Shown: positions 36,768 to 63,694, numbered from the stretch's first letter. The stretch: 64,000 nucleotides of DNA from Dehalococcoidia bacterium (GCA_965197645.1 OZ240219.1:3136001-3200000), one strand, 5' to 3'. The notes: generated by a model not told the origin, from the sequence alone. Made by a program: numbers and translations.

Positions 36768-36852
36768 TGGTGCGGAAGGTGGGACTCGAACCCACACGCC
36801 CGAAGGCACATGATCCTAAGTCATGCTCGTCTGCCAATTCCGACACTTCCGC
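36768..36852 (-). tRNA. tRNA-Leu(TAG)
   Basis: GCGGAAG acceptor stem, D-loop TGG, anticodon arm CATGA-CTTAGGA-TCATG, long variable arm, GGTTCGAGTCC, encoded CCA. Confidence 0.97.
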
Positions 36853-41053: not shown

Positions 41054-42685
41054 TCAAGGTGAAGATTCTTGTGATCCAATTGACACGCACTCAGGCTGAG
41101 GGGACTCAGGGTCAGGAGAATCAGGGTCTGAGGAATCATCGTCGATGGGTATAGCCAGCGTGATGTCCACGTTGTTGTCCTTGTCGATGATGACCTGTTC
41201 CACGAGCATCTGGAGATAATCGTGACGTTCCTCGGAGGTCAACTCGTCCAGGCCCTGGCCGAACTCTCTCGCCCAGGCTAGGACCTCCTCCATCAGTCGC
41301 CGCTTCTCAGTTCCACTCGCCTCCTGAGCACGGTAATCGTCCAGCTTCGCCCTGGCGCTCTCAAGCCGCTCGGTGATGAACCTGCGCTGGAGGTCGAGTT
41401 GGGCCTCGGTGATCTTCCCCGACACGAACAGCCTGATGGCGCGGTCCTCTTCCATCTGGATGCTTCGCAGGTCTCGCTCGGCCTGGGCGATCTCCTCCTC
41501 CATTCCGCCGCCCTCCTGAGAATCGAGGGTGGCGATACCGGCGACGATCAGGTCGGGGTTCTGGAGTACCCGCTTCACCTCGCTCCATATCGGCTCCTCC
41601 AACTGCTCCGCCCGGATGTAGGGCTTCTCCCGGCAGCGCAGGCGCATACCCTGCATCCCGTTGCACATGTAGTAGCGGCGGGGGGTGGTCAGGTCGTAGG
41701 TGTAAGCCTTGCCCTTGCGAACGCTGGTGGTTGTCCAGGAGGACCTCGTATGGAAGTTGCGGCCGCACTCGCCGCATTTCAGCAGATGCTGCAACTGGTA
41801 GAGCACCTTAGTGTTCCTCCTGGCCTTCGTGCTCCGCTGCTTCTTCAGCTTCTGCGCCCGTTCCCAGGTCTTATCGTCGATCACCTGCGGGACCGGAATC
41901 TCAATCCAGGTGTCCTTGGGCTGGTCGTATACCTTCATGCCGTCCTCAGTGGCGACGTGGCGGTACTTGCCGTAGACCCAGGAGCCCGTGTAGGTGGCAT
42001 TCCCCAGAATGTGGTGCACGCGGGACTGAAGCCACGTCAGCTTGCCGGTCTGTGTGGGAACCTCCTCGTCGGTCAGCCGCACGGCAATGGAGTAGGCCCT
42101 CATTCCCTCATGGACGTACATGTGGAAGATGCGGCGGACGACCTCCGCCTGCTCCTCAACCACCTCGGGCCTGCCGCCTTCCCCGATACGGTAACCGTAG
42201 GGGAGGCCGCCGGTGGGCACCCGTCCCTGCTTGGCAGTCCCCCGCTTGCCCATAGTGGACCGCTCCCGGAAGTTGTCCAGTTCAATCTTGCCGATGGCCG
42301 CCATGAGTCCGAAGGTCTTCATGTCGATGGCGTCCAAGACGGCTTCGAGCCGAATCTGATGGGCCTCGACGACCTCCATGAGTGCGGCGGCGGGGTACAT
42401 GCCCCTGCTGAGGCGGTCGGACTTCCAGCACACGATGGTGTCGAAGCGTCCCTGCCTGGCGTCGGCCAGCATTCTTTGGAACTCGGGGCGCTTCTTCGAC
42501 CAGCCCCTGCCGACCTCCTGGTAGCGCGCGGCGATGGTCAGCCCCTTGCTCTCGCAGTAGGCTTCCATGTCGCCTGTCTGCTCGGCGATGGAAGTCTTGT
42601 CCTCCCCATCCTGGCTCTTGTCTGAGACGCGGGCGTAGATGGCCGCCCGGTTCGCCTCCGTCCTCCTCTTGGTGGTTCTCGCCAT
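41054..42685 (-). CDS. Large serine recombinase (integrase)
   Basis: YARVS catalytic motif, DRLSR, PYGY, Zn-ribbon CGECG...C, coiled coil; GAGGAG SD before ATG 42685. Confidence 0.95.
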   Translation of the reverse strand: MARTTKRRTEANRAAIYARVSDKSQDGEDKTSIAEQTGDMEAYCESKGLTIAARYQEVGRGWSKKRPEFQRMLADARQGRFDTIVCWKSDRLSRGMYPAAALMEVVEAHQIRLEAVLDAIDMKTFGLMAAIGKIELDNFRERSTMGKRGTAKQGRVPTGGLPYGYRIGEGGRPEVVEEQAEVVRRIFHMYVHEGMRAYSIAVRLTDEEVPTQTGKLTWLQSRVHHILGNATYTGSWVYGKYRHVATEDGMKVYDQPKDTWIEIPVPQVIDDKTWERAQKLKKQRSTKARRNTKVLYQLQHLLKCGECGRNFHTRSSWTTTSVRKGKAYTYDLTTPRRYYMCNGMQGMRLRCREKPYIRAEQLEEPIWSEVKRVLQNPDLIVAGIATLDSQEGGGMEEEIAQAERDLRSIQMEEDRAIRLFVSGKITEAQLDLQRRFITERLESARAKLDDYRAQEASGTEKRRLMEEVLAWAREFGQGLDELTSEERHDYLQMLVEQVIIDKDNNVDITLAIPIDDDSSDPDSPDPESPQPECVSIGSQESSP

Positions 42686-42710
42686 GACTCCTCCTCTCTC
42701 GAATCCTCTG

Positions 42711-42833
42711 AAAGCAAAAAGGCCCGCCTCCTGTCGGGAGCGGGTCTGCGAGTAGTACAATCTATTCGCATCACCTGTTACCGCAGGTGGCGCCACGACC
42801 CGGGGTGTTAGCGCACCGCCGGGTCAACTTCTG
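42711..42833 (-). ncRNA. Candidate structured leader / small RNA upstream of the recombinase
   Basis: Two hairpins with related loops (42772-42789, 42797-42825), then a GC hairpin plus T-tract (42746-42711) before the SD. Confidence 0.5.
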
Positions 42834-42996: not shown

Positions 42997-45900
42997 TTAT
43001 AGCAAGCCTTCCTCTGCGGCTTTGGCCAACCAATAGTCTGCGTGCTCTCTAGTGAAAAACAATGACACTGGGGTCTGACGCTGAGGAGGTCGGATAGTGA
43101 CGACCTTGCCTTGAATAGAATTGGACACGCCATTGTCTGAGTTGAACATCAGCCTGCGGTTGCTCGCCTGGCCCAAGACTCTAGTGACCTCAGTCCGAGT
43201 AACGGCATCGCCAAGTGCGCCATGGTGGTAATGACATAGCAGGAGGATATTACCTGCATGGCGTGCTCCACCAGCGTTAACGTGATCGCAATGTTGCGCT
43301 TCCATAATCCGGCGTCGGTTTTCGGAGTCCTCTACATAGCTCGATAGCGGTGCCAGCGTTTTGGGTTCGGCCCAGGCAAGACAGGCTTGGCAATGCCACG
43401 CATATTGCTTCTCTTTGAGGTCGGCTATTTGAGCATTCTCATCTGCCGACTGGGGCCGACTACTCTCTCTTCTAGGCTTGCTGACATTTCTGATGACTCC
43501 ATCACCTTGAGGAATGGGACCGGGGTTAGGAATGTTTTTCGACGGGTCAGGCTTAGGCACTGAATGAATAGCTGATGTCGCCGAAGGACTTGAATCCAAA
43601 CTATGTTGACTAGTGGTATCGTCAATCTCGCCATCCTCTTGAGGTTGTACCCCGTCTAAATGCTCCAGAGGATAGCGCTCTCTCATCTCCATCTTGTACG
43701 CCTGATCAAGCACGGAGCCATAGTACTTCTTGGGCAGTTCGAAGACGTGTTCAGCGACTACGTCGAAGAAGACCCCCCGTAGGTCGGTATCTGATCTGAT
43801 CCAGAGCGTACCGGACTCTTTGTCGAGCTTCCCATATACTGGTACGGAGAACCTGTACCGCCCTAGCTTATAGATAGCAGTGACAGAATCCGCAGTCCTT
43901 ATGCCTTGAACACTTGCTAGGCGTTCACGCCAGTTGCTCCTGAGCGCGCTCTCGGAAGTGTCAAGGTCAAGTTTGGCAAGCCGCTTTTGTAGCTGCCTTC
44001 CCTTCAGACCAGATTGGAGAGAATCAAGAATCCCCTTAAAATCGAAGTTTGAAGGGAGTAGGTTTTGTCTCCCCGTGCCAACTGCCCCTACTGGGTCCCC
44101 CACATAGTCGCTCAGAGTGCGCAGTCCGAGCTCTCGTAGGTGGGCAGTGACCGGCTCCCTTACTCGGCGACTCTCTACGATCGCCATCTCCACGGGGCGC
44201 CTCGTTGGATGCCGTCTTATCGCCTCTTCAAGCTCTTCGAAGTCAGGGATTACAACCTTGCTCCTTGTCTTGGTAGCATCCGACTTCGTCACAAGCCGTA
44301 CTCTGGCTCCGTCGGACTCGATCATAATGAACGGAACCTGAGGAAACTCATCGCTCCATGCACGTGGTCCAGATTGATGATTGATATGACGTAGGATTTG
44401 ATCAGCATGCCTAGCGACGACGTCAGTATCCTGAGATGCTAGCCACTGGAAGAATCTTCTAGAACTATTGAAGTTGGGTGTCCCACCAACGACACCAACA
44501 AGTCCGTACAGCCTTTGCGTTTCAGCATTGATGTCAGTCACTGGCACACGTATCTTCCAGTCGCCCCAGAAATCGCGACTTCCTCGCAACGCAATTTCAT
44601 TTGGAGAGCGCAGTTTCCCTTCTACCGGAATGCAGGGGACATCAATCAATCCGACGGGTTCTATGCTTTCGCGTTTGGATTGCCTCACGTACTCTTGAAG
44701 CCTCGGTACATGTGCATCAAAGCGGGCACCATCCCCTTGAAGGGTGTCAACGATCTGATCCGCAGAGGGAGCAGTCCGCGGTTTCCAGCCATCGATTCGA
44801 TCCAAAATGCTAATGGGCCGGTCAATGACGTGCTCATCTAGCAAATTAAGACGCTGCAACCCCCCTGCATCTCTTACCAATTCACCAGGATCTCTCAGGC
44901 TTCCGCCTTTATCTAAGGCACAGCGGTAATCTTTATCTAGCTCACCGAGGTATTCCTTTAGCCGTGGTGTAGAAGAGGCAAGGACGGCAAGATCTTTCTC
45001 AACCTTGTGAAATTCACGTCGTTCATTAGCGGTCAGTTTCCTATCACGGGCAAATCGGTCAATATGCTCTATCAGGAATTCCTCAAACTCCTGAAATGAA
45101 GGCGTATGCCTGAAAGTCAGGCGGCCCCTGCCAGCCCTGCTTACAAGGCCAACTTTCAGGAGCTCGCGAGAGGGTCGCACTATTGCGTTTCCCATGACTG
45201 ACGCGACGCGAGGACTGCGAGGCTCACAAAGACTATCCAATGGCAGTAGGCTACCGTTGGCACTCGGCCACACTGGGAAGTTGGCGGTCCGTATAAGCGT
45301 TTGTCGCCGCTTAACGGTTCTCCAGTTGTCGCGGAGCCAAGTCCAAAACGACTTACGCTCCAAAAGTGAAGCCGTCTCAAGCTGGGCTTTATCGAGGTAG
45401 TCCTCTAACCTGAATGGTTTGGGCTTCCATGCTCTCTTCCTCAGAAGGCGATGGCCTTGCAATTCTGGATGGAGGAGGGGCACATACTCTTGCTGACCGA
45501 GATTCGGCGGCAGGTTTACAGCGCTGAACATCCCTACTAGCGGTCGTGCCCTAGACCTTTCGTCGGGTAGGTAGGTGTTCTGTATGACTTCCGATTCAGA
45601 TTCCAGTTTATCTCTTTGAATAGTCTCGTATAGGACATCCAAGTAGACCTTGGCGACTGATGGGTTACCGAGAGCTGCCTGCCATTCAAACTTGTCCTGC
45701 CAAGGAAAGTAATTGGCTTCCAGTTTAGGCTGTAGTCGTTCGGCAACATCGTTTTCGTCAAAAGTGATCACATCCGTCTTGTTGACCAGACAACTCAAAA
45801 TAGGGCCAGGAACGGTCCTGTTGATTTGGTCTTCTTCCCCTGGGCAAATCTCCGAGAGCAGAGGGGCAATTCGCTCTTGATCCCATGTGAACATCGGCAA

Positions 45901-47202
45901 GACGACTCTACGAAGAGTGCCAGCCGATATCTTCCTGGGGCCTAAGGCAATCCGCCTAATGCGCTTTGATACTTTTGACACCCTGTCTGCAAGTGGTAAC
46001 GCTCGTCTGTCGATTGTGCGCTCTACAAGGTCATTGAGCGTTTCATCTTCTGCATCACCAGGACTGGCCATGTAGAGCTCCATCGCCCTTCCACCATGAC
46101 GTTGGAGCAGGTAGCTAGACATGATATCCACAAGCGCGTCTTTGCACGCATCGTCAATATAGGCGTTCAGGGAATTCATATGGCTGGTGCCGTGTCTCCC
46201 AGCATCAGAAATGTACGGACCTGAGAAGTGGATGCCCACGCCGGTAAGTGAGGCGTCCGAAGTGCCGTCATATCCTATCGGGTACCTCCGAACTCCTTTG
46301 GCTGACTTAGGCATGCCTCTCTTGTCTGTGAGCCACGCTATCTCCGCTAAAAAGGATTTCCTGTCCCTAAAGAAGAAGTCTGGTATCTCTGGCCGCTTTC
46401 CCGCAGGGAACGGTAGCCTGAATACACAGGCCCGTTCGTGGATTACAGTTGAAGGAACGCGGGGTGCCTTCGAGGAAGTGTCACATTCCCTACTGAATAC
46501 GCCAAACCGTCTCTGGCCTCTGCCAGTGACGGTCCGTCCTCTCTTGGCTCGCCAATGAATCTCGACGGACCCCAGAGCATGGTGGCTCAGAGAAAGTGTG
46601 TACTGATCACGAAGTCCAGGACGAACTACGCCCAACAGTCTGTCTGGCAAAAGCTCGCATGCATTCCTGAAGAGTCCTTCTAGGGAACTCTCTTCAGGAA
46701 TCCCAATTGTCAATTCTTCACCCTTCGTAATTACTAGCTCTTGCTTCCGATAAGGAACTTCAATCGAGCACCCGATAGGCGGAGCGCTACCGTCCGGGAC
46801 CGGCTCCCGAAGTGTTCCTGGCGATGGCTGCTTGTCATAGCCGTCCTTGTACAGGGTCTGGATCATTCTGAGGCCATCTGATCGCACAATGATTTCATCG
46901 CCGAGCCAGAAACACGCCTTTAGGCCGTGGTTCTTGATTCCTATTTGGAACCGTTTGCTTTCAACCTCGACACCCGCACCCATGACAAAGGATAGTCGTC
47001 GCCAGCCGTTCTCAGTCACGGGTTCACCGTCTCCACGACAGATTAGTCGGTCAGCAGTGAAGGTGATGGACGTACGCGATGCATTGGCGTCCAAATCATT
47101 CTGAATAAGCTCAACTATCAGGTCATCAGAGTGCAAGCCCCTAAGGAACTGCCAAAACTGTGGCTCCGCGTCAAACCTCTGGACGAATTCCGAAACGTAC
47201 AA
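42997..47202 (-). CDS. Sacsin-like GHKL ATPase fused to C-terminal HNH nuclease (1401 aa)
   Basis: ELIQNDLDANA, IGIKNHGLKACF, HFSGPY..D.GR; C-terminal CQAC...HCDH...NILLLCHYHH; GGAGGA SD. Confidence 0.8.
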   Translation of the reverse strand: MYVSEFVQRFDAEPQFWQFLRGLHSDDLIVELIQNDLDANASRTSITFTADRLICRGDGEPVTENGWRRLSFVMGAGVEVESKRFQIGIKNHGLKACFWLGDEIIVRSDGLRMIQTLYKDGYDKQPSPGTLREPVPDGSAPPIGCSIEVPYRKQELVITKGEELTIGIPEESSLEGLFRNACELLPDRLLGVVRPGLRDQYTLSLSHHALGSVEIHWRAKRGRTVTGRGQRRFGVFSRECDTSSKAPRVPSTVIHERACVFRLPFPAGKRPEIPDFFFRDRKSFLAEIAWLTDKRGMPKSAKGVRRYPIGYDGTSDASLTGVGIHFSGPYISDAGRHGTSHMNSLNAYIDDACKDALVDIMSSYLLQRHGGRAMELYMASPGDAEDETLNDLVERTIDRRALPLADRVSKVSKRIRRIALGPRKISAGTLRRVVLPMFTWDQERIAPLLSEICPGEEDQINRTVPGPILSCLVNKTDVITFDENDVAERLQPKLEANYFPWQDKFEWQAALGNPSVAKVYLDVLYETIQRDKLESESEVIQNTYLPDERSRARPLVGMFSAVNLPPNLGQQEYVPLLHPELQGHRLLRKRAWKPKPFRLEDYLDKAQLETASLLERKSFWTWLRDNWRTVKRRQTLIRTANFPVWPSANGSLLPLDSLCEPRSPRVASVMGNAIVRPSRELLKVGLVSRAGRGRLTFRHTPSFQEFEEFLIEHIDRFARDRKLTANERREFHKVEKDLAVLASSTPRLKEYLGELDKDYRCALDKGGSLRDPGELVRDAGGLQRLNLLDEHVIDRPISILDRIDGWKPRTAPSADQIVDTLQGDGARFDAHVPRLQEYVRQSKRESIEPVGLIDVPCIPVEGKLRSPNEIALRGSRDFWGDWKIRVPVTDINAETQRLYGLVGVVGGTPNFNSSRRFFQWLASQDTDVVARHADQILRHINHQSGPRAWSDEFPQVPFIMIESDGARVRLVTKSDATKTRSKVVIPDFEELEEAIRRHPTRRPVEMAIVESRRVREPVTAHLRELGLRTLSDYVGDPVGAVGTGRQNLLPSNFDFKGILDSLQSGLKGRQLQKRLAKLDLDTSESALRSNWRERLASVQGIRTADSVTAIYKLGRYRFSVPVYGKLDKESGTLWIRSDTDLRGVFFDVVAEHVFELPKKYYGSVLDQAYKMEMRERYPLEHLDGVQPQEDGEIDDTTSQHSLDSSPSATSAIHSVPKPDPSKNIPNPGPIPQGDGVIRNVSKPRRESSRPQSADENAQIADLKEKQYAWHCQACLAWAEPKTLAPLSSYVEDSENRRRIMEAQHCDHVNAGGARHAGNILLLCHYHHGALGDAVTRTEVTRVLGQASNRRLMFNSDNGVSNSIQGKVVTIRPPQRQTPVSLFFTREHADYWLAKAAEEGLL

Positions 47203-47204
47203 TG

Positions 47205-48056
47205 TCAGTTCTCCTCCAACTGTCGCTGTCGAAGAAGTTCGATATTGATACTTTTGATAAGTTTCAGCCGGGCCTCAGTAGAAAGGTTAGACACGTGCGC
47301 CAATGCCACAGAGTCGAGGTTTAAGCCTTCCGCAACCGACACGACCCCGTTCTCACAGAGCCGGAACACTCCCCCATCAAATGCCCTATGGCAATATGCA
47401 CACAGACCAATCCCATTGGCGGGATTTGCTCGATTCTTCACGTCAGTTGAATACCTGCTGATGTGCGCCACATCTAGCACTTCTCTGAGTGTCGTTCCGC
47501 AGATTGCACAGGCAAAGCCTTGGCGCAGCAGCACTGTCTGCTTGAAGCGCTCTACGCTGTGCCTCCTCTTGACGAATGACCAAGCATCAGGCACAGAGTA
47601 GTCTGGAGCGTCCGGCGGTGCAATCGCTATGCAATGCCGCCGGTATGCCAACTCGATGATACTTGTAAACAAGTCAGGGCTGACTTGTGCTATGGAGCGT
47701 GACCAGCCCAACTTGTTCACATCCGTGATCCCCAGTGACGCTCGATTCCTCTTACCCTCAACATTAAATGGGCGAATATCCAGCGAACGAGCGTACTGAA
47801 CAAAGTCGCCAAGTGTAGCAGTAAAGACACGACTAACTCTGAATTGGCCTTGTTCTGTGGTTTCGGCGGTTCTAGTTGACACCTGGGTAACAATGCCGTG
47901 TCCCGCGAAACCGTAACCACCGCCCCGCTTGTCAAGGTACACAAAGGAGTCACCGGGCTTCACCCTAACGGAGTGTCTATTGTCGTAAACATAGGTCTGC
48001 CCCGGTTCGTCAGGGTACTGCTCTTGCTCAGATTGCTTGAAAATCCAGAAGGTCAC
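47205..48056 (-). CDS. HNH endonuclease with N-terminal EVE/PUA-like domain
   Basis: N-terminal WIF...KPGDSFVY...FAGHGIV; C-terminal CAICG...AHI...NGIGLCAYCHRAFD. Confidence 0.8.
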   Translation of the reverse strand: MTFWIFKQSEQEQYPDEPGQTYVYDNRHSVRVKPGDSFVYLDKRGGGYGFAGHGIVTQVSTRTAETTEQGQFRVSRVFTATLGDFVQYARSLDIRPFNVEGKRNRASLGITDVNKLGWSRSIAQVSPDLFTSIIELAYRRHCIAIAPPDAPDYSVPDAWSFVKRRHSVERFKQTVLLRQGFACAICGTTLREVLDVAHISRYSTDVKNRANPANGIGLCAYCHRAFDGGVFRLCENGVVSVAEGLNLDSVALAHVSNLSTEARLKLIKSINIELLRQRQLEEN

Positions 48057-48066
48057 TGTGAGTCCC

Positions 48067-49002
48067 TCATTTGTTCATGATCCAAGCTATTCTTCCATCA
48101 AGCCAATTAATCAACTCAAGCTTTAAGGGGCCAGGAATCCATACAAGCTCGGGGTCAGCTTGTGCCAGAAGCCTATACCTATCGACCAACAGACCGCCGG
48201 CTCGATTGCTTTGGCGACGCAACTCTCGCTCATCAAGTGCAAAAGGAAGGGAGAAGGCTTTGTTGGGAGGAGCTGCAAAGTCCACGATCTTCGCCCACTC
48301 CTTGATGTTCGGCTCGTTAACCTTCTCTGCCCAGTTCTTTCCGCTTGCGCATTGGGCAAGGTAAACTGGCGTACCGCCACGGGAATCGGGGAAGCGTAGA
48401 TGCCACACGAGGTCGACCCCCGCATCCTTGGCGTTCAAATCGAGGTAGTCATCGGGATTGCCTTTCCGTTCATCGATGGCCACTGTCAGTTCATCGATGA
48501 CTGAAGCCAACTTGGTGGTGTTATCCGTGCTCCATCCTGTCTGGAGGAACCTCCAACCACTAAAGCGGGCCTCCATGGCTGCCCTCGTGATGGACTCAAA
48601 TAGCCTGCCTTGCTCAACATAGTTGGGTCCAAATGTGGTATGCCAGTCCTCGTATCTGGACCCGAGCGATACGACCAAGCAGTAGCTATGGGCAGGAATA
48701 TCTTGCCAATTCACCCTTCTGGCCATCCACCTGTCTTTGAAGACAATGGGAGCGTGTGATCCCATCCAGGACATGCGTCTCTGGAGAGCCGTCCACGCGG
48801 ACAACACAAACTCGGATGCGCTGTCTTGATCCTCAAAGACTTGCTCCTGGACCAGATGGTCGACGACGTCGGTTTGGGAGAGTTCTTCCTCCAAGAACAG
48901 GTTGGTTGCCTCCAGCCAGTCAAGAAACACGGAGTTTTCCAGGTCTGGATCACGAGCAACCTTCAGGAAATCGCTTGGGTGGCTAAGCATTGTCACCGTC
49001 AC
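48067..49002 (-). CDS. Putative PD-(D/E/Q)XK restriction-endonuclease-fold protein
   Basis: KDAGVDLVW...YLAQCASGKNW pattern; overlaps the upstream ParB-like gene. Confidence 0.65.
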   Translation of the reverse strand: MTVTMLSHPSDFLKVARDPDLENSVFLDWLEATNLFLEEELSQTDVVDHLVQEQVFEDQDSASEFVLSAWTALQRRMSWMGSHAPIVFKDRWMARRVNWQDIPAHSYCLVVSLGSRYEDWHTTFGPNYVEQGRLFESITRAAMEARFSGWRFLQTGWSTDNTTKLASVIDELTVAIDERKGNPDDYLDLNAKDAGVDLVWHLRFPDSRGGTPVYLAQCASGKNWAEKVNEPNIKEWAKIVDFAAPPNKAFSLPFALDERELRRQSNRAGGLLVDRYRLLAQADPELVWIPGPLKLELINWLDGRIAWIMNK

Positions 49003-50110
49003 CCTTCCCTAGTCCGATCTGCTCAGCAATCGATGGGAACTTGGATACAAGCTCCTTTGCGTTTAGAGCCAGCCGCAGCATAGCCGTCTGAATCGGCTCA
49101 GAATGCACGTACAAATGCACTTTGCTCAAAGCCAACTCCATTTGAATGCTGGCCTCTTTGAGTTGCGTCTCAATTTCCTCATTCTCGACTCCGGCCTTTT
49201 GCAGAGCCACGTCAAAGCTGGGCACAGGCGAAGACCTGAGATACTCGACAGCCTCAGGATTCGACAGAATCTTGGCAAAGCTGCTAATGTACCTGGAATC
49301 AGCGAAGAGCGGCCGCTGCTTGTCCGTACCAAACAACCACCTCGCAAAGTCTGACAGATTGTGCTCCATTGCATGTGATACTGGGACCTTGGCTTCAATG
49401 GGCTCAACTCCTAGGTCAATACCTAGAAAGGATCGAACACCCCCTTCCCGAAGGGAAAGGAAGAGCACACTAAATCTGCTCTCAAGACCCTGCTCAGATA
49501 CTTCAATGTCGAGAGACTCAATCTGTTTCACAACGCGGTAGGCGATATAGTTTCTTCGTACTGTATCGGTCTGCATTCCAATCTGTTTACGGACAGTGTC
49601 ATAGGACATCTCCATATCATCTACCATGCTGGCGATGAACTCTGCCTTTTGTGTTGGGTCCCATTGCTTGATTCCCGTTACGTGCCTAAAGCCAAGGTAA
49701 GCTATGACATCTGCGCGCGAGTCAGCAAGGATGTAGGGTATTTGGATGAATAGCTCACTGCTGGGCGTAACGCCTTCTACCAGCGTGCGCCAAGTCCTCG
49801 AAGGATGATTGCCGTCAAACGCGCGTTGAAGATACCTCAACGCAGCGATTCGGCGATTGCCCTCCACCACTACTAGTGTGTCAGGCTGGTTATACAGCCC
49901 TTCTTTGACGACAATTACAGCTTCTTGTGGCCAGAATCCGTTCTCCAAGAATGAGACGGCCAACTCTTCCAAGTTCCAACCTCGCATTAGCTCCAGGACG
50001 CGCTCCTGAGTAGCCAACGGTTCAGCAGCACCGAGGCCCAATCGAGGGTTACGGGGGTCAAGTGAGAGTTGCTCTAAGGAAACAAACTCAATTGTGTGAG
50101 AAAGAGGCAT
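48983..50110 (-). CDS. ParB/Srx N-terminal domain protein (defence-associated type)
   Basis: LDPRNPR, VVVEGNRRIAAL, RHVTGIKQW; no parA nearby. Confidence 0.8.
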   Translation of the reverse strand: MPLSHTIEFVSLEQLSLDPRNPRLGLGAAEPLATQERVLELMRGWNLEELAVSFLENGFWPQEAVIVVKEGLYNQPDTLVVVEGNRRIAALRYLQRAFDGNHPSRTWRTLVEGVTPSSELFIQIPYILADSRADVIAYLGFRHVTGIKQWDPTQKAEFIASMVDDMEMSYDTVRKQIGMQTDTVRRNYIAYRVVKQIESLDIEVSEQGLESRFSVLFLSLREGGVRSFLGIDLGVEPIEAKVPVSHAMEHNLSDFARWLFGTDKQRPLFADSRYISSFAKILSNPEAVEYLRSSPVPSFDVALQKAGVENEEIETQLKEASIQMELALSKVHLYVHSEPIQTAMLRLALNAKELVSKFPSIAEQIGLGKGDGDNA

Positions 50111-50212
50111 GATCTGCACCTCGCTTATGGGTGTTCAATTGCTTCTGTGACATGGTTGCAGTCCGTCCCGGATTTGGGCGACCAGCTTGAACTATGTTAG
50201 TTGCATGCCACA

Positions 50213-50917
50213 TTAGACTACTCGCTTTTGCATTCTGGCCTCACGAGAGCCGACGGAGCAGTCCCGTAACAGAGGACAGCTGGGGCAGTCGGGCTTATTG
50301 GGGCGGCAGTAGGCCGACCCTATGTCGATGAGGCCCAAGTTGAACTCGCGTGCATGGCGGCGGGGGAGAAGTCCATTGGCGAACTCCGCAAGGCGAGTGT
50401 CGGAATATGCCGGACCGGCGCTAGGAAAGCCCAGTACACGCCGCAGAACACGCCCCGATCCTTCGTCAATCATCGGTAGGGGATGATTGAAAGCCATGCA
50501 CAAAGTCGCTCGGGCACTGTACCTCCCGATACCCGGGAGCGATTGCAGTTCCCCTAGGTCTTCTGGCACTTGTCCCCCGTAGTCTCGCAGCAAGCGGCGC
50601 GCGCACTCGACCAGTCTGTCAGCACGTAGGACGAGACCGAGAGGTCTAAACCACCAACGCAGAGCTTCGACATCGGTCGCTGCCAGTGAGGCAGGGTCAG
50701 GGTATGTGGTAACGAGATGGGTGTAAGGGCTGACCACCCTGGCTGCCTGGGTCTGCCGAAGCAAGACCTCTGCTATCAAAATGTGGAACGGGTTCCTAGT
50801 GTCCCGCCAAGGGAACTCTCGCCCATTGCTACGGAACCAACTCACGACAGAGGCTGCGAGCTCTTTGCTGCTCCCCAGAGCTCTGTCTCTGTTCGGCTGT
50901 CGTTCTGCTTGAATCAC
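50213..50917 (-). CDS. HhH-GPD [4Fe-4S] DNA glycosylase, MIG-type (T/G mismatch)
   Basis: FPWR, EVLLRQTQA, LPGIGRY, FNLGLID, C-x6-C-x2-C-x5-C; no MutY C-terminal NUDIX domain. Confidence 0.85.
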   Translation of the reverse strand: MIQAERQPNRDRALGSSKELAASVVSWFRSNGREFPWRDTRNPFHILIAEVLLRQTQAARVVSPYTHLVTTYPDPASLAATDVEALRWWFRPLGLVLRADRLVECARRLLRDYGGQVPEDLGELQSLPGIGRYSARATLCMAFNHPLPMIDEGSGRVLRRVLGFPSAGPAYSDTRLAEFANGLLPRRHAREFNLGLIDIGSAYCRPNKPDCPSCPLLRDCSVGSREARMQKRVV

Positions 50918-50920
50918 CGC

Positions 50921-51907
50921 TCACCTACTCACTGAAATGGGGACAGCGCACCATGGACGCAACCACGCATCTAGCTCCGTCGCCGTGACTCTCGGCGCTG
51001 TTGAGAGGTCCACCTTGTAACGGGTCTCTGTTACTCCTGGAGGCTCTGGTACCCGAAAGTGCGGGATATCCATCGAACGGAACCAGGCGAGGTTCTGCTC
51101 TGCTTCAGCAGCATCGATTACTGGACCAGGCTCTGCTGATGACTCCATGCCAGCCTGGCGCACTGCTTTCTCAAGCTTCAGGTAGTCAGGCGTTCCGAGC
51201 AGAGCATTCCTACATTCGTCGATCAACTGCCGTAAGCTGAGGCCAGAGTCATCCTCGGTCGCAACTATCGATGCAACAACTATCTCTTCGCCTTCAGTGG
51301 CAAATATCTGCCTGTGGGAGAAGTGGTGCATGCGCTCTGGTCGCGTCGTGACCTTGACCTCGACTCGATTGCGGCCACAAGAGAAGTCGAATCGCCTCTC
51401 AACTTCGCTGTGCCAGAAGGGGGCCCAGAATCGAAAACCCTGCACACGGCTCATCATGAACAGCTCACCCCATAGGCCGCGTCTCTCCGCCTGGAGGTCT
51501 TTGGCTGGCGTGACAGCGAATAGGCGGACCATAGAGCGGAAGAACGAAGTTAGAGCATGCCGGTCTACCCTTCCCGCCTCATGGCGCGCCAAGAATGCCT
51601 CCGCGAGCAAGAGAAAGGTCTCCACATCCGCCGAGTCCGATGTCTCACAGCGTAGAGCGTGCAGCAGCTCAACCCTCGGGGAGTCGTACATGCCGGCCAG
51701 GCTGTAGCTCTGCCCAATGTGGAGAGAGAGCTTGTTAGTGCGCAGCGGGGGCTCTTGAGCTCCCGCTTCAGCCACAACAAAGAGGACGGGGTAACCGGTA
51801 ATATCAATCCCAAGGAGGACTCCGTAGCTTCCCGGTACGGGAGCAACAGTAAATGCGTGGCCAGATGGCCTGTCCCTAAGCTCTGATAGAAGGGCGGCGA
51901 GCCTCAT
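50921..51907 (-). CDS. PD-(D/E)XK motif protein (DUF4420-like)
   Basis: GLWGEL, W......FDF....VEVKVT, HHFS; ATGA-coupled to the Z1 gene. Confidence 0.85.
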   Translation of the reverse strand: MRLAALLSELRDRPSGHAFTVAPVPGSYGVLLGIDITGYPVLFVVAEAGAQEPPLRTNKLSLHIGQSYSLAGMYDSPRVELLHALRCETSDSADVETFLLLAEAFLARHEAGRVDRHALTSFFRSMVRLFAVTPAKDLQAERRGLWGELFMMSRVQGFRFWAPFWHSEVERRFDFSCGRNRVEVKVTTRPERMHHFSHRQIFATEGEEIVVASIVATEDDSGLSLRQLIDECRNALLGTPDYLKLEKAVRQAGMESSAEPGPVIDAAEAEQNLAWFRSMDIPHFRVPEPPGVTETRYKVDLSTAPRVTATELDAWLRPWCAVPISVSR

Positions 51908-54054
51908 AGGTTGTCATCCCGGACTACATATCTGAGGTCGAAGCGCGGATCCTCGCTCGGCACAAAAAGGCCGAGCGCTGTGGTCTCTACCGGATCGGAT
52001 AGTCCATCCCCGCTAACTCGAATCACGTGCACCTGGAGCTGGACACGACCCTCGTGGATGTTCTCGTCGCCGGGATAGAACCTGGGATCGGGGGGATCCC
52101 TGCCCGGGGTGCGACCCTGCATGGGGTTCACGCGACCTTGCCGCTTGGTTCTCTCTCGTGTTCGACCTCCCGTCATATATACAAGGTCCATAGATGGGAG
52201 CACCCCTGCAAGCAGCAATCGTGCCAGGTACTCACTTGTATAGGATGCGTCCCAGTCGGTCCCCTCTGCTTCGATTTTGGCTAGCAGCCCTGCTATGACC
52301 TCTTCAGTCGAACAGTCCTCAGCAACAAGGTGCTCGACGTTCCCAAAGCGCTTGAGAGACGTCTCCTCTCGCTGGGCAAAGAAAGTCCTCACTGATTGGA
52401 GATTGCGTGCAGCGACGACCTCATCCTCTACGAGGCGGTTCTGTATGTCCCAGCCTCCGCCTCTGAATCGCCGATAGCTAGCTACATTCGACCTGGTTGG
52501 CTTTAGGCCCATGTTCATATCCAGCGAGAGCATGCGAGGCCACTCCCGAATGGATAGTCGTTGCCGCTGGTTTCGGCGAAGCGCCTCCCAAAAGTCGTCC
52601 TCATGCCTCAAGAGCTCTGTGTAGTCGTCTCGAAGCTGCGAGGTTACGAATATGCGACAGACATCAAGGTAGTCATTCTTGTAGCCGAACCATCGAGCTC
52701 GCTGCTCCATGGTGTCGGCATTTGTCTCGTTCTTCGCCCGGCGAGTGATGTACGTGACCGCTAATCCCTCAATTGTGACTCCTCGGCCAAGCATGTTGCC
52801 GCCGACGAGGATGTTGTTCTTTAGCCTGAAGGGTGTCCCAATGGGGTCGCGGCCCAAGGGTAGGCTATTGACCATCCACACCTCGACGAGCCAAACCTCG
52901 TCACGCAACTGCTCGAGCACCTCTTCCCAAGCAGGGGGATCTTGTACCGTGGAGCACAGATCGTCATAGGCCGCCCGCATGAGAGATATCAGCTCATGTC
53001 TAGCGGGATCGTCGTCCGAAAGGCTGAGACTCTCACGCCAAAGCCCAATGAGATTGCGGACAGCTGTCTGGAGTCTCTCGTGGTCGGCACGTAGGTTGCT
53101 GTTGTGAATGAGCATCGAATGCCATGCATTGGACTCGCGTCGGTGTCGAATAGCGCCGCCGACAAGGAAGGTCGCGATGGCCTGCCTGAGGCCATCGGGG
53201 ATTCCCCAGACGTGCTCGTCTTCAGCCTCTGCCAAGGGCACGGGCCTCACATATCGATCGCGATCTGACCCGAAGAAAGTGGCTCCGCCACAGTATCCGT
53301 GTCCCGGCTCAACGAGAACCCCAAAATCAGGTGAGAGGCCATCGATCCCAGATATGAGAAGGTTCGCTTGAGGAGTTGCTGTGTACGCCACATAGGCGTG
53401 GACGCGAAGAGCAGCCCTTAGCCTAAGGATGCTCTCATAGATAGCAGATCGTCTCCCGCGGCGGAACTGGGTGTTGAGGGACGCTTCGTCCCCCTCATCA
53501 TCGATGATGAGGGTTGGGAAGCCACTGAGCTCGGAGGTGGCTAGGACCCGCCTTGCATCTTCAAGCCGCTTGCGGTTTTTCAGCACTACGATCAATGCGT
53601 GCCCACCACCATGAAGCACGCTTCTAATGACCTCAGCGTCTTGGGGGATTGGGTTCCTGAAGGGCGTTAGATTCGGGCGCCTAGCTTCCAGGTCGTTGTA
53701 CAGCCGGGTGTAGTTCTGCTCCAAGAGGGGGTTCTTCGTACCAGCCAGCACTACCGTTATACGGTACCCGTTGTCTATGGCCAGGGCGATTAGAGATGTG
53801 TAGGAGAGGGTTTTGCCACTCTGGACCTTGCCAAGCGCAAGTCCAGTGACTCTCCTATCGTTGTCCGCTGGAGTTGGGCACCGACCAAGAATTGATGCGG
53901 CAGTCTCTACAACATCGTCCCACTCGTCGTCGCCGACACGCTCCTGATACCTGCTCCTCAGGCGTTGAATCTCTTCACCATCGATAGATGGCCCCCAAAG
54001 ATCCGTTGCCGTCGACAAGGGATCAATACCGATAGTCATGCTAGGCTCGACCAT
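51904..54054 (-). CDS. Z1 domain-containing SF2 helicase-like protein
   Basis: GKVQSGKT, IIDDEGDEAS, YTATPQAN, GGNMLGRGVTIEGL, DTMEQRARWFGY. Confidence 0.92.
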   Translation of the reverse strand: MVEPSMTIGIDPLSTATDLWGPSIDGEEIQRLRSRYQERVGDDEWDDVVETAASILGRCPTPADNDRRVTGLALGKVQSGKTLSYTSLIALAIDNGYRITVVLAGTKNPLLEQNYTRLYNDLEARRPNLTPFRNPIPQDAEVIRSVLHGGGHALIVVLKNRKRLEDARRVLATSELSGFPTLIIDDEGDEASLNTQFRRGRRSAIYESILRLRAALRVHAYVAYTATPQANLLISGIDGLSPDFGVLVEPGHGYCGGATFFGSDRDRYVRPVPLAEAEDEHVWGIPDGLRQAIATFLVGGAIRHRRESNAWHSMLIHNSNLRADHERLQTAVRNLIGLWRESLSLSDDDPARHELISLMRAAYDDLCSTVQDPPAWEEVLEQLRDEVWLVEVWMVNSLPLGRDPIGTPFRLKNNILVGGNMLGRGVTIEGLAVTYITRRAKNETNADTMEQRARWFGYKNDYLDVCRIFVTSQLRDDYTELLRHEDDFWEALRRNQRQRLSIREWPRMLSLDMNMGLKPTRSNVASYRRFRGGGWDIQNRLVEDEVVAARNLQSVRTFFAQREETSLKRFGNVEHLVAEDCSTEEVIAGLLAKIEAEGTDWDASYTSEYLARLLLAGVLPSMDLVYMTGGRTRERTKRQGRVNPMQGRTPGRDPPDPRFYPGDENIHEGRVQLQVHVIRVSGDGLSDPVETTALGLFVPSEDPRFDLRYVVRDDNL

Positions 54055-55612: not shown

Positions 55613-55622
55613 CCGACCTCCT

Positions 55623-56981: not shown

Positions 56982-57059
56982 TGCCAACGCCCTAGTGTGG
57001 AGTAGACGTCTGAAAGCAGCCCTTTCATATGGTCCTCTTCACTACTGCAACCGTATCGC

Positions 57060-57471: not shown

Positions 57472-58083
57472 CTACTCTATCGGTGCAGCTTGACCTCCCA
57501 GCGAAAAGTTCGCAGTTCGGTATGCCCCTGCCCACCAGTCGGCGCAGTAACTGCGGGATATCCCAGCCTCGATTAGAGGGTAGCGGTTCGTCATCCACCG
57601 GTCGCGGGAGGTCCTCATGCGTATGGCCTCGTCGGTAGAGATGCCGAGCCACAGTTCGACGGTGGTTCCGGCGGGGACGCGCTGCCTCGGCCTGAGTCCC
57701 AGCATCTCCCGAATCCTGCGTCGTATGGGCCTGATCTTGTAGTTGTCGGTGCATTGGCGCCTGCCGATGCCGTCGCCCTCCCCGTCGCCTCCCTTCAGGT
57801 AGACGGGTATGTCCACGTAGTTTCGGGAGCCCGAGTGGTTGGTGAGGGCCTTCACGTCCTCGCGGAGACTGCGCCCGTTGTCCACGACGTGCAGGGGAAA
57901 GCTCAGCCGGTCTTTCAACCACGCCAGGTGCTCGTAGATGCTGGGGGGCTCCCACCGGGTGTCGGCGAAGATGGCGCAGTCGGGAACGCGGTCGAATGCC
58001 CCCTCGTTTGCCATGAGCGCCATGACCGAGGACGGGACGCCCCCGCCCAGGCTGATGACGGTGAGGGTAGGCTGGGGACGCAT
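57472..58083 (-). pseudogene. 3'-truncated PAPS-reductase-like (PP-loop) gene
   Basis: SLGGGVPSS, IFADT.WE, RQCT..YKI.PI, WLGISTDE, YPLIE; resemblance ends near 57535, before the expected Cys-rich C-terminal motif. Confidence 0.65.
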
Positions 58084-58301
58084 CAGCCCTGCTCCTCGGC
58101 GTGGCCTTCAGCCCGCGCGGCGGCGTCCCGCACCGGCTCGGACTGCCTGTCCCTGGCGGCGTGCTTGATCATCATGGTGATGATGCGGCGCAGGCGGTCC
58201 CGGGCGTCGGGTGCGGGCCTGGAAGAGACCGTGATGACGCCTATCTCAAAGGCGCCGCCGCGGGGCTTCCTCCGTCCGTTCTGTTTCTTCTCATTCTTCA
58301 T
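58083..58301 (-). CDS. Small hypothetical protein (72 aa)
   Basis: Stop overlaps the next ATG; co-oriented with the element backbone. Confidence 0.55.
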   Translation of the reverse strand: MKNEKKQNGRRKPRGGAFEIGVITVSSRPAPDARDRLRRIITMMIKHAARDRQSEPVRDAAARAEGHAEEQG

Positions 58302-58788: not shown

Positions 58789-58795
58789 GAGGGTG

Positions 58796-59417: not shown

Positions 59418-59483
59418 GTGTTGAAGACCTCCTTTCGGTACTGGGCGGGAGCCGCCGCTGCACTCCCGTCCCGTACGGCGTGT

Positions 59484-63678: not shown

Positions 63679-63694
63679 GGTGTTATTCCTTTCT

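What the first reader, a model, noticed from the sequence alone, without database searches (positions are those of the whole stretch)
42997..50110. Four-gene ParB-like / PD-(D/E/Q)XK / EVE-HNH / giant GHKL-HNH module
Seen: tightly packed four-gene block, separated from the upstream module by the one sizeable internal gap. The ParB-like protein has no ParA partner, so partitioning is unlikely. I do not recognise this combination as a named system. Inference: a nucleotide-sensing or DNA-clamping ParB/Srx domain controls the nucleases.
Basis: partly seen in the sequence, partly recalled or inferred. Interest (0 to 1): 0.78.

Follow-up and report, generated by a model that had tools for sequence, protein, structure and literature searches.

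The report
ParB-type restriction pair plus add-ons
The four genes are real but are not one machine: the first two look like the DNA-cutting half of a widespread, undescribed restriction-modification cassette whose methylase sits in the neighbouring module, and the other two are separate, swappable defence nucleases.

Summary
Four tightly packed minus-strand genes exist at 42997-50110. Comparative genomics splits them.

(1) The ParB-like gene and the 'QCASG' gene overlap by 8 nt. They were adjacent in 18 of the 19 related genome loci. In 21 of 22 loci with enough flank, a DNA methyltransferase lay within 6 kb. Vsr, or the HhH-GPD protein that sits at the Vsr position, often accompanied it. The pair is therefore best read as the restriction half of an R-M-like cassette. 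Its methylase (55623-56987) and HhH-GPD gene (50213-50917) lie in the 'upstream module'.

(2) The HNH gene (VcaM4I-type HNH; N-terminal domain unassigned) is an optional add-on.

(3) The giant is a sacsin/Tiamat-clade GHKL ATPase with a conserved HNH. It was found in 1 of 19 loci. A bona fide Tiamat sits beyond QCASG in another locus.

The ParB fold is confirmed. PD-(D/E)XK and EVE are not. The closest validated relative is PD-lambda-5, which shares the ParB-like domain and has a methylase but lacks a QCASG partner. The QCASG family has 2,257 clusters at 50% identity and no model in Pfam, NCBIfam or PADLOC.

The parts
48983..50110 (-). ParB/Srx-fold protein (375 aa): N-terminal ParB-type NTP-binding domain, HTH-like middle domain and helical C-terminal domain. 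Proposed NTP-gated DNA-binding subunit of the restriction pair.
   Evidence: AF2 pLDDT 83.7. Foldseek hits ParB-CDP 6sdk (E 2.3e-5), KorB and Noc at probability 1.0. Invariant LDPxNPRLG and EGNRRxA motifs. PADLOC PD-Lambda-5_A 2.7e-16 and PDC-M38A 1.8e-19. No Pfam hit.
48067..48990 (-). 'QCASG' protein (307 aa), an uncharacterised family: confidently modelled helical N-terminal half and a C-terminal half with invariant D197, Q217-C-A-S-G, W224 and K227. Proposed nuclease subunit.
   Evidence: 89 clusters. 2,257 representatives at E<=1e-3. Invariant columns. No Pfam, NCBIfam, PADLOC or PDB match. AF2 pLDDT 65 and no Foldseek hit with E<0.6. 8-nt overlap with the ParB-like gene.
47205..48056 (-). 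283-aa protein: unassigned N-terminal ~150-residue domain (PUA/EVE-like by analogy only) plus a VcaM4I-type HNH nuclease. Probably a stand-alone modification-dependent (type IV-like) endonuclease and an optional add-on.
   Evidence: HNH_2 2.4e-8. NF045808 4.4e-10, below its cut-off. 6yex 1.7e-3 as a single sequence and 1.1e-7 as a profile, over HNH and linker only. Present in 4 of 19 related loci plus one remnant.
42997..47202 (-). 1401-aa sacsin/Tiamat-clade GHKL ATPase with a long helical middle and a C-terminal zinc-finger HNH. Probably a stand-alone defence protein and an optional add-on.
   Evidence: NF047352 9.3e-8. Atlas SACS clusters 0.98-0.99. Family of 108 clusters, about 1400 aa each. 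Invariant E31/N35/D38 and H1304/N1318/H1326/H1327. No PADLOC TmtA hit. Present in 1 of 19 loci, IS-disrupted there.
55623..56987 (-). C5 cytosine DNA methyltransferase. Proposed protective partner of the ParB-like/QCASG pair, and probably of the Z1 module as well.
   Evidence: PF00145 4.3e-62. A methyltransferase accompanies the pair in 21 of 22 loci with adequate flank.
50213..50917 (-). HhH-GPD (MutY/Nth-like) protein that matches PADLOC's 'Type II nicking endonuclease' model. It occupies the position that Vsr holds in other loci, so it probably repairs T:G mismatches after m5C deamination.
   Evidence: PF00730 1.5e-9 and PADLOC REase_II nicking 1.9e-37. TIGR01084 mutY 1e-44, below its cut-off. 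Vsr is present in L008, L011, L013, L014 and L018.
50921..55711 (-). Three-gene GHKL (54041-55711), Z1 helicase-like (51904-54054) and DUF4420 PD-(D/E)XK (50921-51907) module. A second, separable restriction-type module next to the same methylase.
   Evidence: Pfam HATPase_c_3, Z1 and DUF4420. PADLOC Helicase_II 3.9e-56 and MzaC 3.8e-34. Present in 9 of 22 pair-bearing loci and absent from 13.
41054..42796 (-). Large serine recombinase directly downstream of the giant. Marks the block as cargo of an integrated mobile element.
   Evidence: Resolvase, Recombinase and Zn_ribbon_recom. Serine recombinases also flank L001 and L007. Relaxase-like and TrwB-like genes lie at 59484-63798.

Best explanation
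The block is a composite of three independent defence units carried as cargo on an integrated mobile element.

Unit 1 is the ParB-like protein (48983-50110) with the QCASG protein (48067-48990). They form the restriction half of an R-M-like cassette. The cassette's modification enzyme is the C5 methyltransferase at 55623-56987. Its m5C-deamination repair gene is the HhH-GPD protein at 50213-50917.

Proposed mechanism for Unit 1 (inferred, not shown):
- The ParB-like subunit binds DNA through its HTH-like domain.
- It uses its conserved ParB-type nucleotide pocket (LDPxNPR, EGNRR) as an NTP-gated switch or clamp.
- It thereby licenses the QCASG subunit, whose D197...Q217CASG...W224xxK227 core is the candidate active site, to cut DNA that lacks the cassette's methylation.

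Unit 2 is the 283-aa HNH enzyme. It is read as a stand-alone modification-dependent nuclease aimed at DNA that escapes Unit 1 by hypermodification.

Unit 3 is the 1401-aa GHKL-HNH protein. It is a Tiamat-like ATPase-nuclease acting on its own.

Shown here: gene order, coupling, co-occurrence, the ParB fold and motif conservation. Inferred: nuclease activity, NTP dependence, methylation sensitivity and independence of the units.
For: Pair coupling:
- ParB-like lay directly upstream of QCASG in 18 of 19 genome-contig loci, spread over Chloroflexota, Latescibacterota, Planctomycetota, Acidobacteriota, Bacteroidota and Pseudomonadota.
- Stop and start codons overlap here and in most loci.

Methylase link:
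- tblastn with the window's methylase hit 16 of the 19 loci. Two of the misses, L014 and L015, end at the contig edge just after QCASG.
- Over all loci with adequate flank, 21 of 22 have a methylase within 6 kb. These are the window, 16 genome loci, the Neorhizobium plasmid (dcm in two ORFs), a Vibrio prophage (Dam-type, PD-Lambda-5_B 6.6e-95), phage vB_EcoM-12474III (C5) and phage HQ103 (an unannotated C5 ORF, 76% identical).
- Vsr sits in 5 loci and the HhH-GPD 'nicking' protein in 7, counting the window.
- L005 keeps methylase+ParB+QCASG, with only a 96-aa remnant of the GHKL gene between them.

Distant pairs keep the key residues D, Q-[CV]-[AG] and WxxK: hhalign 97.5%, 93.7%, 88.7% and 56.4%.

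A relative gives experimentally shown anti-phage defence. PD-lambda-5 shares the ParB-like domain (hhalign 98%, 1.8e-13) and pairs it with a methylase. Its authors called it a compacted RM+Abi system that needs an mrr-deleted host (passages read).

Add-ons are variable:
- HNH gene in 4 of 19 loci, giant in 1 of 19.
- In L003 a 139-aa ORF and then a bona fide Tiamat (TmtA 1.5e-112) follow QCASG. Integrase, relaxase-like or recombinase genes follow in L001 and L004, and an HTH gene in L007.

Against: - No nuclease fold is demonstrated for QCASG. The model has low confidence over the motif region, and no structural or profile match was found.
- The conserved glutamate E136 is not kept in the Vibrio homologue.
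- The Persicobacter pair has no detectable methylase within 6 kb.
- Z1-DUF4420 followed by ParB-QCASG recurs in the same order in the 6 Chloroflexota (mostly Dehalococcoidia) loci that carry the module co-directionally and in an alphaproteobacterial plasmid. A functional link between the two modules therefore cannot be excluded.
- HNH, giant and QCASG clusters share contig lengths more often than unrelated genes would. Matching by eye gave 15, 7 and 7 coincidences, with 4 for all three. Within this clade the add-ons travel with the pair fairly often.
- An m5C-reading type IV enzyme next to a C5 methylase would be self-toxic unless its specificity differs. That specificity is untested.
Confidence: 0.62

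Rival explanations
1. One larger system. Methylase, GHKL, Z1 helicase-like protein, DUF4420 nuclease, HhH-GPD, ParB-like and QCASG act together as a single multi-subunit, NTP-dependent R-M machine. ParB-like/QCASG would be accessory loader and nuclease subunits of the Z1 motor.
For: The genes are co-directional and tightly packed in the window. The same order occurs in L001-L004, L006 and L007. The order Z1-DUF4420-ParB-QCASG recurs in a Neorhizobium plasmid from another phylum. Only one methylase serves the whole array.
Against: 13 of 22 pair-bearing loci have no Z1 module at all: L005, L009-L013, L016-L018, L021-L024. In L008 the two modules are on opposite strands, and its Z1 module is only 27-33% identical while the pair is 54-57% identical. 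L005 has apparently lost the Z1 module but kept methylase+pair.
Confidence: 0.13
2. The four genes 42997-50110 form one system in which the ParB/Srx protein senses a nucleotide or clamps DNA and controls all three nucleases.
For: Spacing is tight (8-nt overlap, then 10-nt and 2-nt gaps) on one strand. The same four-gene order occurs in L002. Four contig-length coincidences involve all three families (matched by eye).
Against: The giant was in 1 of 19 loci and the HNH gene in 4 of 19. Other cargo occupies the stretch beyond QCASG in other loci. Both add-on families are large (108 and 140 clusters), and most of their clusters share no contig length with a QCASG cluster. In L002 the giant is IS-disrupted while the rest is intact.
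Confidence: 0.07
3. The pair is not a restriction enzyme. Either the ParB-like protein is a DndB-like regulator or a loader that targets the methylase to the element's own DNA (anti-restriction or epigenetic control), or the pair with the methylase is an addiction module. In both cases QCASG would be a non-catalytic or repair-type partner.
For: ParB-superfamily proteins act as regulators or sensors in other systems, such as DndB, NsnA and SspE (passages of PMC12065111). ParB-methylase associations are common on mobile elements. No nuclease fold is shown for QCASG. The cassette sits on mobile elements and in phage hotspots.
Against: The related PD-lambda-5 gives broad anti-phage protection. Vsr or HhH-GPD and methylases of two classes accompany the pair as in classical R-M cassettes. 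The invariant polar D, Q and K residues in QCASG argue for catalysis.
Confidence: 0.12

Closest known systems
PD-lambda-5 (Vassallo et al. 2022, PMC9519451; PADLOC PD-Lambda-5_A/B)
   Same: The ParB-like subfamily is shared. The window protein hits PD-Lambda-5_A at 2.7e-16 over residues 13-221. A phage AS1 A-type protein aligns to the ParB-like profile at 98%, 1.8e-13. The system is coupled to a DNA methyltransferase; the Vibrio pair's methylase is PD-Lambda-5_B at 6.6e-95. Homologues sit in prophages and P2-like phage hotspots. Anti-phage activity is experimentally shown, and the authors read it as a compacted RM+Abi system.
   Different: PD-lambda-5 has two genes. Its A protein is about 430-590 aa, and its C-terminal ~300 residues show no similarity to QCASG (hhalign 0.09%). 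It has no QCASG partner. The window's methylase is C5-type, not D12/Dam-type. No QCASG protein hit any PADLOC model.
Canonical ParB / KorB / Noc CTP-dependent DNA clamps
   Same: The fold of the N-terminal domain plus HTH region matches (Foldseek probability 1.0). The arginine-rich GxxRR motif and the xPxNPR motif are conserved.
   Different: There is no ParA partner and no partition context. Sequence similarity is below Pfam and NCBIfam thresholds (TIGR00180 0.057). The protein has a different C-terminal helical domain and is coupled to a putative nuclease and a methylase. CTP binding is untested.
DUF262-type ParB-superfamily defence sensors (GmrSD, SspE, DndB, Menshen NsnA)
   Same: A ParB-superfamily NTPase domain followed by a DNA-binding domain is used as a sensor in defence systems, paired with or fused to nucleases (passages of PMC12065111).
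   Different: The window protein carries the canonical ParB-type EGNRR motif, not DGQxR. It gives no GmrSD_N/DUF262 Pfam hit and no NsnA, SspE or DndB PADLOC hit. Those systems are modification-dependent or PT-linked, whereas this pair travels with its own methylase.
VcaM4I-type EVE-HNH modification-dependent endonucleases (PMC7897488; PMC6765204)
   Same: The HNH subtype and the linker match (6yex 1.1e-7 over profile positions 138-252). The two-domain layout and the size are the same.
   Different: The N-terminal domain shows no detectable EVE or PUA match by Pfam or PDB profile. The modification read, if any, is unknown.
Tiamat (TmtA) and Tiamat-like type IV-A proteins (preprint 10.64898/2026.09.30.754977)
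   Same: A sacsin-clade GHKL ATPase N-terminus, a long helical core and a C-terminal nuclease module. [quoted passage not shown] A true TmtA lies beyond QCASG in L003.
   Different: There is no NOV_C/DUF3883 domain, no PADLOC TmtA hit and no BLASTP similarity to the L003 TmtA beyond the N-box. The HNH here keeps its His/Asn/His and zinc ligands, whereas the preprint says the HNH-like folds typically lack catalytic residues.
CglI/NgoAVII-type and MZA-type Z1 modules (PMC5861437, PMC4267653; abstracts seen in the listing). Relevant to the upstream module only.
   Same: A Z1 helicase-like protein with a nuclease and a methylase (PADLOC Helicase_II 3.9e-56, MzaC 3.8e-34).
   Different: Here the partners are a GHKL ATPase and a DUF4420 nuclease. 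This module is not part of the four-gene finding.

Membership tests
ParB/Srx superfamily | ParB/Srx N-terminal fold | tested here: met
   AF2 pLDDT 83.7. Foldseek hits ParB-CDP 6sdk 2.3e-5, Myxococcus ParB, KorB, Noc and sulfiredoxin; 18 hits with E<=0.001.
ParB/Srx superfamily | Conserved nucleotide-pocket motifs (xPxNPR box and GxxRR arginine patch) | tested here: met
   L17, D18, N21, P22, R23 and E83, G84, N85, R86, R87, A89 are invariant in 17 sequences.
ParB/Srx superfamily | NTP (CTP/ATP) binding and hydrolysis | not testable with these tools
   Needs biochemistry.
ParABS partition system | Adjacent ParA ATPase and partition context | tested here: not met
   No ParA-type hit among 12 neighbours. 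The neighbours are a putative nuclease and a methylase in 21 of 22 loci.
Restriction-modification system (for ParB-like+QCASG+methylase) | Dedicated DNA methyltransferase genetically linked to the putative nuclease genes | tested here: met
   21 of 22 loci with adequate flank; 20 C5-type and 1 Dam-type.
Restriction-modification system (for ParB-like+QCASG+methylase) | Endonuclease that cuts unmethylated DNA, and methylation that protects | not testable with these tools
   No nuclease fold shown for QCASG. Needs cloning and cleavage assays.
PD-lambda-5 | PD-Lambda-5_A full-length architecture (ParB-like N-terminus plus its own ~300-aa C-terminal region) | tested here: not met
   PADLOC hits cover only profile positions ~5-220 of 428-592. 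The C-terminus of an A-type protein is unrelated to QCASG.
PD-lambda-5 | PD-Lambda-5_B D12-class methyltransferase partner | tested here: not met
   The window's methylase is C5-type (PF00145). The B-type methylase accompanies only the distant Vibrio pair.
PD-(D/E)XK nuclease superfamily (QCASG protein) | Alpha-beta-beta-beta-alpha-beta core fold | tested here: inconclusive
   The AF2 secondary-structure order fits: H129-146, E150-154, E198-202, E213-216, H224-229. But pLDDT is below 50 over residues 175-257, and no Foldseek hit had E<0.6. The Atlas gave only low-score leads to HaeII (0.82) and BsoBI (0.80) endonuclease clusters.
PD-(D/E)XK nuclease superfamily (QCASG protein) | D ... (D/E/Q)xK catalytic motif | tested here: inconclusive
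   D197 and Q217 are invariant, but position 219 is Ala. The only invariant Lys is K227, on the next helix. D, Q and WxxK are kept in distant homologues.
EVE-HNH modification-dependent endonucleases (VcaM4I type) | HNH nuclease domain of the VcaM4I subtype | tested here: met
   HNH_2 2.4e-8. 6yex 1.1e-7. C183, C186, H198, N214, C219, C222 and H223 are invariant.
EVE-HNH modification-dependent endonucleases (VcaM4I type) | N-terminal EVE/PUA modification-reading domain | tested here: inconclusive
   No Pfam hit at E<=0.01. The profile match to 6yex stops before the EVE domain.
Tiamat (TmtA) | Sacsin-clade GHKL/Hsp90-like ATPase domain | tested here: met
   NF047352 9.3e-8. Atlas SACS clusters 0.98-0.99. 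E31, N35 and D38 are invariant.
Tiamat (TmtA) | C-terminal NOV_C/DUF3883 PD-(D/E)xK nuclease (required by the preprint's curation) | tested here: not met
   No Pfam NOV_C hit. There is an HNH instead. No PADLOC TmtA hit.

The most novel reading that the evidence does not exclude
ParB-like+QCASG+methylase is a new class of NTP-dependent restriction-modification system. In it a ParB-fold nucleotide switch does the job that helicase or translocase motors do in Type I, III and ISP enzymes. It would load at unmethylated sites, close into a sliding clamp and deliver or activate a nuclease of a previously unrecognised family. The class would be widespread: 2,257 clusters at 50% identity, from Chloroflexota mobile elements to P2-like coliphage hotspots. 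PD-lambda-5 would be its compacted two-gene derivative.
Probability: 0.3. Interest if true: 0.8.

Novelty: new variant of a known kind. Interest (0 to 1): 0.6.

Why it matters
If the reading holds, a large and so far unannotated protein family gains a function. The family has 2,257 clusters at 50% identity and no Pfam, NCBIfam or PADLOC model. R-M systems would gain a new type of restriction component built on the ParB CTPase-clamp fold.

This would link chromosome-segregation biochemistry to immunity. It would also explain the experimentally validated but mechanistically open PD-lambda-5. The cassette occurs in E. coli P2-like phages, so it can be tested directly in laboratory strains.

The analysis also shows that tight packing on one strand is a poor guide to system boundaries in defence islands. 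Here the true partner gene lies beyond a second module, and two of the four 'members' are swappable cargo.

Tried and rejected
- Complex prediction on ParB-like + QCASG, each with its alignment, returned 'no answer' (score 0.01). It counts neither way.
- The AF2 model of QCASG (pLDDT 65) gave no Foldseek PDB hit with E<0.6.
- QCASG family members gave nothing by profile search of PDB at E<=10, by Pfam on all 18 members at E<=1, or by PADLOC on 12 family members at E<=0.1.
- The ParB-like profile against PDB sequences gave no meaningful hit. Only the fold comparison worked.
- The window ParB-like and QCASG proteins gave no Pfam hit even at E<=10.
- Giant versus the L003 Tiamat by BLASTP: only the N-box aligns. 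Membership of TmtA is rejected.
- The gene after QCASG in the Neorhizobium plasmid and in L003 is not a homologue of the window's HNH protein (hhalign 4.7% and 0.2%).
- L019 is an isolated 70-residue QCASG-like match with no ParB-like gene. It is treated as a remnant.
- tblastn of the giant and of the HNH protein against plasmids found no match. tblastn of the Vibrio QCASG-like protein against phages found no match; the phage partners were found only by position plus hhalign.
- Promoter and terminator scans gave fewer sites than shuffles did and were not used.
- Literature: no paper held 'ParB-like'+restriction+'cytosine methyltransferase'+Vsr. None held 'PDC-M38'. Searches on ParB+CTPase+anti-phage and on ParB+P2-like+hotspot+methyltransferase+defence gave no description of this cassette.
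- The tRNA-Leu at 36768-36852 was considered as the attachment site. It was not pursued, because the island lies on the 5' side of the tRNA.

Full report
**Observation.**
- The region 42997-50119 holds four long co-directional minus-strand ORFs of 378, 311, 283 and 1401 aa.
- Homologue N-termini and the sequence place the real starts at 50110 (ATG after a GAGG motif) and 48990. The second gene's ATG therefore overlaps the first gene's stop by 8 nt (ATGCTTAG).
- The next junctions are 10 nt and 2 nt. The gap to the upstream HhH-GPD gene is 102 nt.
- G+C is 0.52 across 44-50 kb, against about 0.60 in the housekeeping part of the window.
- All four are real genes with conserved families: 89, 140 and 108 clusters at 90% identity for genes 2, 3 and 4.

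**What each gene is.**

*Gene 1 (ParB-like).*
- It has no Pfam hit even at E<=10.
- Its AF2 model (pLDDT 83.7) matches ParB-CDP (6sdk, E 2.3e-5), Myxococcus ParB, KorB and Noc at probability 1.0. There were 18 matches with E<=0.001.
- The ParB-type motifs LDPxNPRLG and VVEGNRRxAA are invariant in 17 sequences.
- It is therefore a ParB/Srx-fold protein with an HTH-like middle part and a helical tail.

*Gene 2 ('QCASG').*
- It has no match in Pfam, NCBIfam, PADLOC or PDB, as a single sequence or as a profile.
- Its invariant polar residues are E136, D197, Q217-C-A-S-G, W224 and K227.
- The AF2 model (pLDDT 65) is confident only for the helical N-terminal half.
- The secondary-structure order of the C-terminal half fits a PD-(D/E)XK core. 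The region has low confidence, however, and Foldseek found nothing with E<0.6.
- The Atlas gave only low-score leads to the HaeII and BsoBI endonuclease clusters (0.82 and 0.80).
- 'Nuclease' is therefore an inference.

*Gene 3 (HNH protein).*
- It carries an HNH of the VcaM4I subtype: HNH_2 2.4e-8 and 6yex 1.1e-7 with a profile.
- Its N-terminal ~150 residues match nothing, so 'EVE' is unproven.

*Gene 4 (giant).*
- It has a sacsin-type GHKL N-terminus: NF047352 9.3e-8 and Atlas SACS clusters at 0.98-0.99.
- E31, N35 and D38 are invariant.
- It has a C-terminal zinc-finger HNH whose H1304, N1318, H1326 and H1327 and CxxC are invariant over 14 homologues down to 29% identity.

**Surroundings.**
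- Upstream on the same strand lie an HhH-GPD/MutY-like protein (PADLOC 'Type II nicking endonuclease' 1.9e-37), DUF4420, a Z1 helicase-like protein, a GHKL ATPase and a C5 methyltransferase.
- Downstream lies a large serine recombinase.
- Housekeeping genes fill 1-36.7 kb, ending near a tRNA-Leu.
- Relaxase-like and TrwB-like genes lie at 59-64 kb.
- The block is therefore cargo of an integrated mobile element.

**Comparative genomics: the decisive evidence.**
- A scan of one genome per species with the QCASG alignment returned 19 loci from at least six phyla.
- tblastn with 12 window proteins gave these counts:
  - ParB-like lay directly upstream of QCASG in 18 of 19 loci. L019 is a 70-residue remnant.
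  - A C5 methylase was found in 16 of 19. L014 and L015 end at the contig edge right after QCASG.
  - The HNH gene was found in 4 of 19, one of them split, plus a 22-aa remnant.
  - The giant was found in 1 of 19. There it is in two pieces around an IS integrase gene.
  - The Z1 module was found in 7 of 19.
- In the distant loci the cassette is simply ParB-like, QCASG and methylase. Vsr is present in L008, L011, L013, L014 and L018.
- L005 keeps methylase+ParB-like+QCASG, with only a 96-aa trace of the GHKL gene between them.
- Annotated records extend this picture:
  - A conjugative Neorhizobium plasmid has dcm (two ORFs), DUF262, Z1, DUF4420, ParB-like (46%) and QCASG (35%).
  - A Vibrio campbellii prophage has integrase, ParB-like, a QCASG-like protein (hhalign 97.5%, 6.8e-12) and a Dam-type methylase that matches PD-Lambda-5_B at 6.6e-95.
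  - Coliphage vB_EcoM-12474III has, next to the portal gene, a ParB-domain protein, a 330-aa partner (hhalign 56%, 1.1e-4) and a C5 methylase.
  - Phage HQ103 has the pair (hhalign 88.7%) and an unannotated C5 methylase ORF that is 76% identical.
  - A Persicobacter plasmid has the pair (hhalign 93.7%) but no detectable methylase.
- Overall, 21 of 22 loci with adequate flank have a methylase within 6 kb.
- The distant partners keep D, Q-[CV]-[AG] and WxxK.
- A profile search of 1.84 billion representatives found 2,257 family members at E<=1e-3 and 999 at E<=1e-10. Among the best 150, none is longer than 363 aa, so no fused form is seen.

**The variable stretch beyond QCASG.** In the close relatives, what follows QCASG differs from locus to locus:
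- L001: the HNH gene, then relaxase-like, HTH and serine-recombinase genes.
- L002: the HNH gene, then the giant.
- L003: a 139-aa ORF, then a bona fide Tiamat (PADLOC TmtA 1.5e-112).
- L004: a tyrosine integrase.
- L007: the HNH gene, then an HTH gene.

I matched 'longest contig' lengths between the three family tables by eye, which is only a proxy.
- QCASG and HNH clusters coincide 15 times, QCASG and giant 7 times, HNH and giant 7 times, and all three 4 times.
- One pair has adjacent NCBI locus tags (F4Y80_06165 and F4Y80_06160).
- The add-ons therefore travel with the pair fairly often within this clade, but most of their families' clusters do not.

**Explanation.** The four genes are three units.

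- *Unit 1.* ParB-like+QCASG is the restriction half of an R-M-like cassette. I propose that the ParB-like subunit is an NTP-gated DNA-binding switch or clamp that licenses the QCASG subunit to cut unmethylated DNA. This mechanism is inferred from the fold, motif conservation, translational coupling and the constant methylase. No activity was shown.
- *Unit 2.* The HNH protein is probably a type IV-like enzyme. Its coexistence with a C5 methylase implies that it does not read the resident methylation.
- *Unit 3.* The giant is a Tiamat-like GHKL-HNH protein. Preprint 10.64898/2026.09.30.754977 (passages read) shows that Tiamat is an ATPase and DNase. [quoted passage not shown]

**Rivals.**
- One large M-GHKL-Z1-DUF4420-V-ParB-QCASG machine. 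Its support is the recurring order, including in a plasmid from another phylum. Against it, 13 of 22 loci lack the Z1 module.
- A non-restriction role (regulator, methylase loader or addiction module).

**Comparison with known systems.**
- The nearest validated system is PD-lambda-5.
  - It shares the ParB-like domain and the methylase principle.
  - Its A protein has an unrelated C-terminus and no QCASG partner.
- DUF262-type sensors (GmrSD, SspE, DndB, NsnA; passages of PMC12065111) are the same superfamily used in defence. They have a different motif and a different logic.
- I found no paper describing the ParB-like+QCASG+methylase cassette.

**Verdict.**
- The system boundary and the interpretation are only partly right.
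- What remains interesting is a widespread, unannotated R-M variant built on a ParB fold. It can be tested in E. coli with the P2-like phage version.
- Novelty: new variant of a known kind.
- Interest: 0.6.

Noticed in passing
window 50213-56987 (-): A complete second module sits upstream: C5 methylase, GHKL ATPase (HATPase_c_3), Z1 helicase-like protein (PADLOC Helicase_II 3.9e-56, MzaC 3.8e-34), DUF4420 PD-(D/E)XK protein, and an HhH-GPD/MutY-like protein that matches PADLOC's 'Type II nicking endonuclease' model at the position Vsr holds elsewhere. The methylase ORF and the GHKL ORF overlap by 89 nt as called, so the TTG start of the GHKL ORF is probably over-extended.
   Followed up: partly
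window 57472-58083 (-): A 203-aa ORF with a partial PAPS_reduct domain (6.7e-7, profile positions 3-99 of 175) lies just beyond the methylase. It may be a fragment of a PAPS-reductase-like gene.
   Followed up: no
window 58001-64000: G+C jumps to 0.68-0.72, against 0.52-0.58 in the defence genes. The segment encodes a MarR/Replic_Relax protein (59484-61115) and a TrwB-like coupling-protein fragment match (61096-63798). It looks like a mosaic conjugative or mobilisable element.
   Followed up: partly
window 38360-41002 (-): An 880-aa ORF in a low-G+C patch (0.516), between the serine recombinase and a Cache-domain protein, has no significant match in Pfam, NCBIfam or PADLOC.
   Followed up: partly
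window 36768-36852 (-): The only tRNA in the window is tRNA-Leu (anticodon TAG). It sits at the border between the housekeeping genes and the island, which lies on the tRNA's 5' side.
   Followed up: no
L002 11801-17304: The giant's orthologue is split into 688-aa and 804-aa ORFs by an insertion that carries an rve-type integrase gene (14030-14893). An IS110-family transposase gene follows.
   Followed up: yes
L006 10915-11797: The HNH gene's orthologue is split into two ORFs (90 aa and 198 aa). It is probably frameshifted.
   Followed up: partly
L003 11889-15269 and 17891-19645: Two ORFs beyond QCASG lies a 1126-aa Tiamat (PADLOC TmtA 1.5e-112; NOV_C). Further on there is a 584-aa HATPase_c_3 protein with a MzaB-like hit.
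   Followed up: yes
L016 7944-9926: An HsdR N-terminal nuclease domain (HSDR_N 4.4e-32; PADLOC REase_I 7.6e-91, covering profile positions 5-277 of 976) runs in the same frame, without a stop, into the ParB-like ORF. Either the cassette inserted into a type I hsdR gene or this is a fusion.
   Followed up: no
L024 2335-3279 (-) (Yersinia phage HQ103 record NC_070908.1): A 314-aa ORF that the record does not annotate encodes a C5 methyltransferase 76% identical to that of coliphage vB_EcoM-12474III.
   Followed up: yes
L008 versus the window: The ParB-like and QCASG proteins are 57% and 54% identical to the window's. The linked methylase and Z1 module are only 40% and 27-33% identical, and they lie on the opposite strand. 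The pair has apparently been recombined with a different methylase/Z1 lineage.
   Followed up: partly
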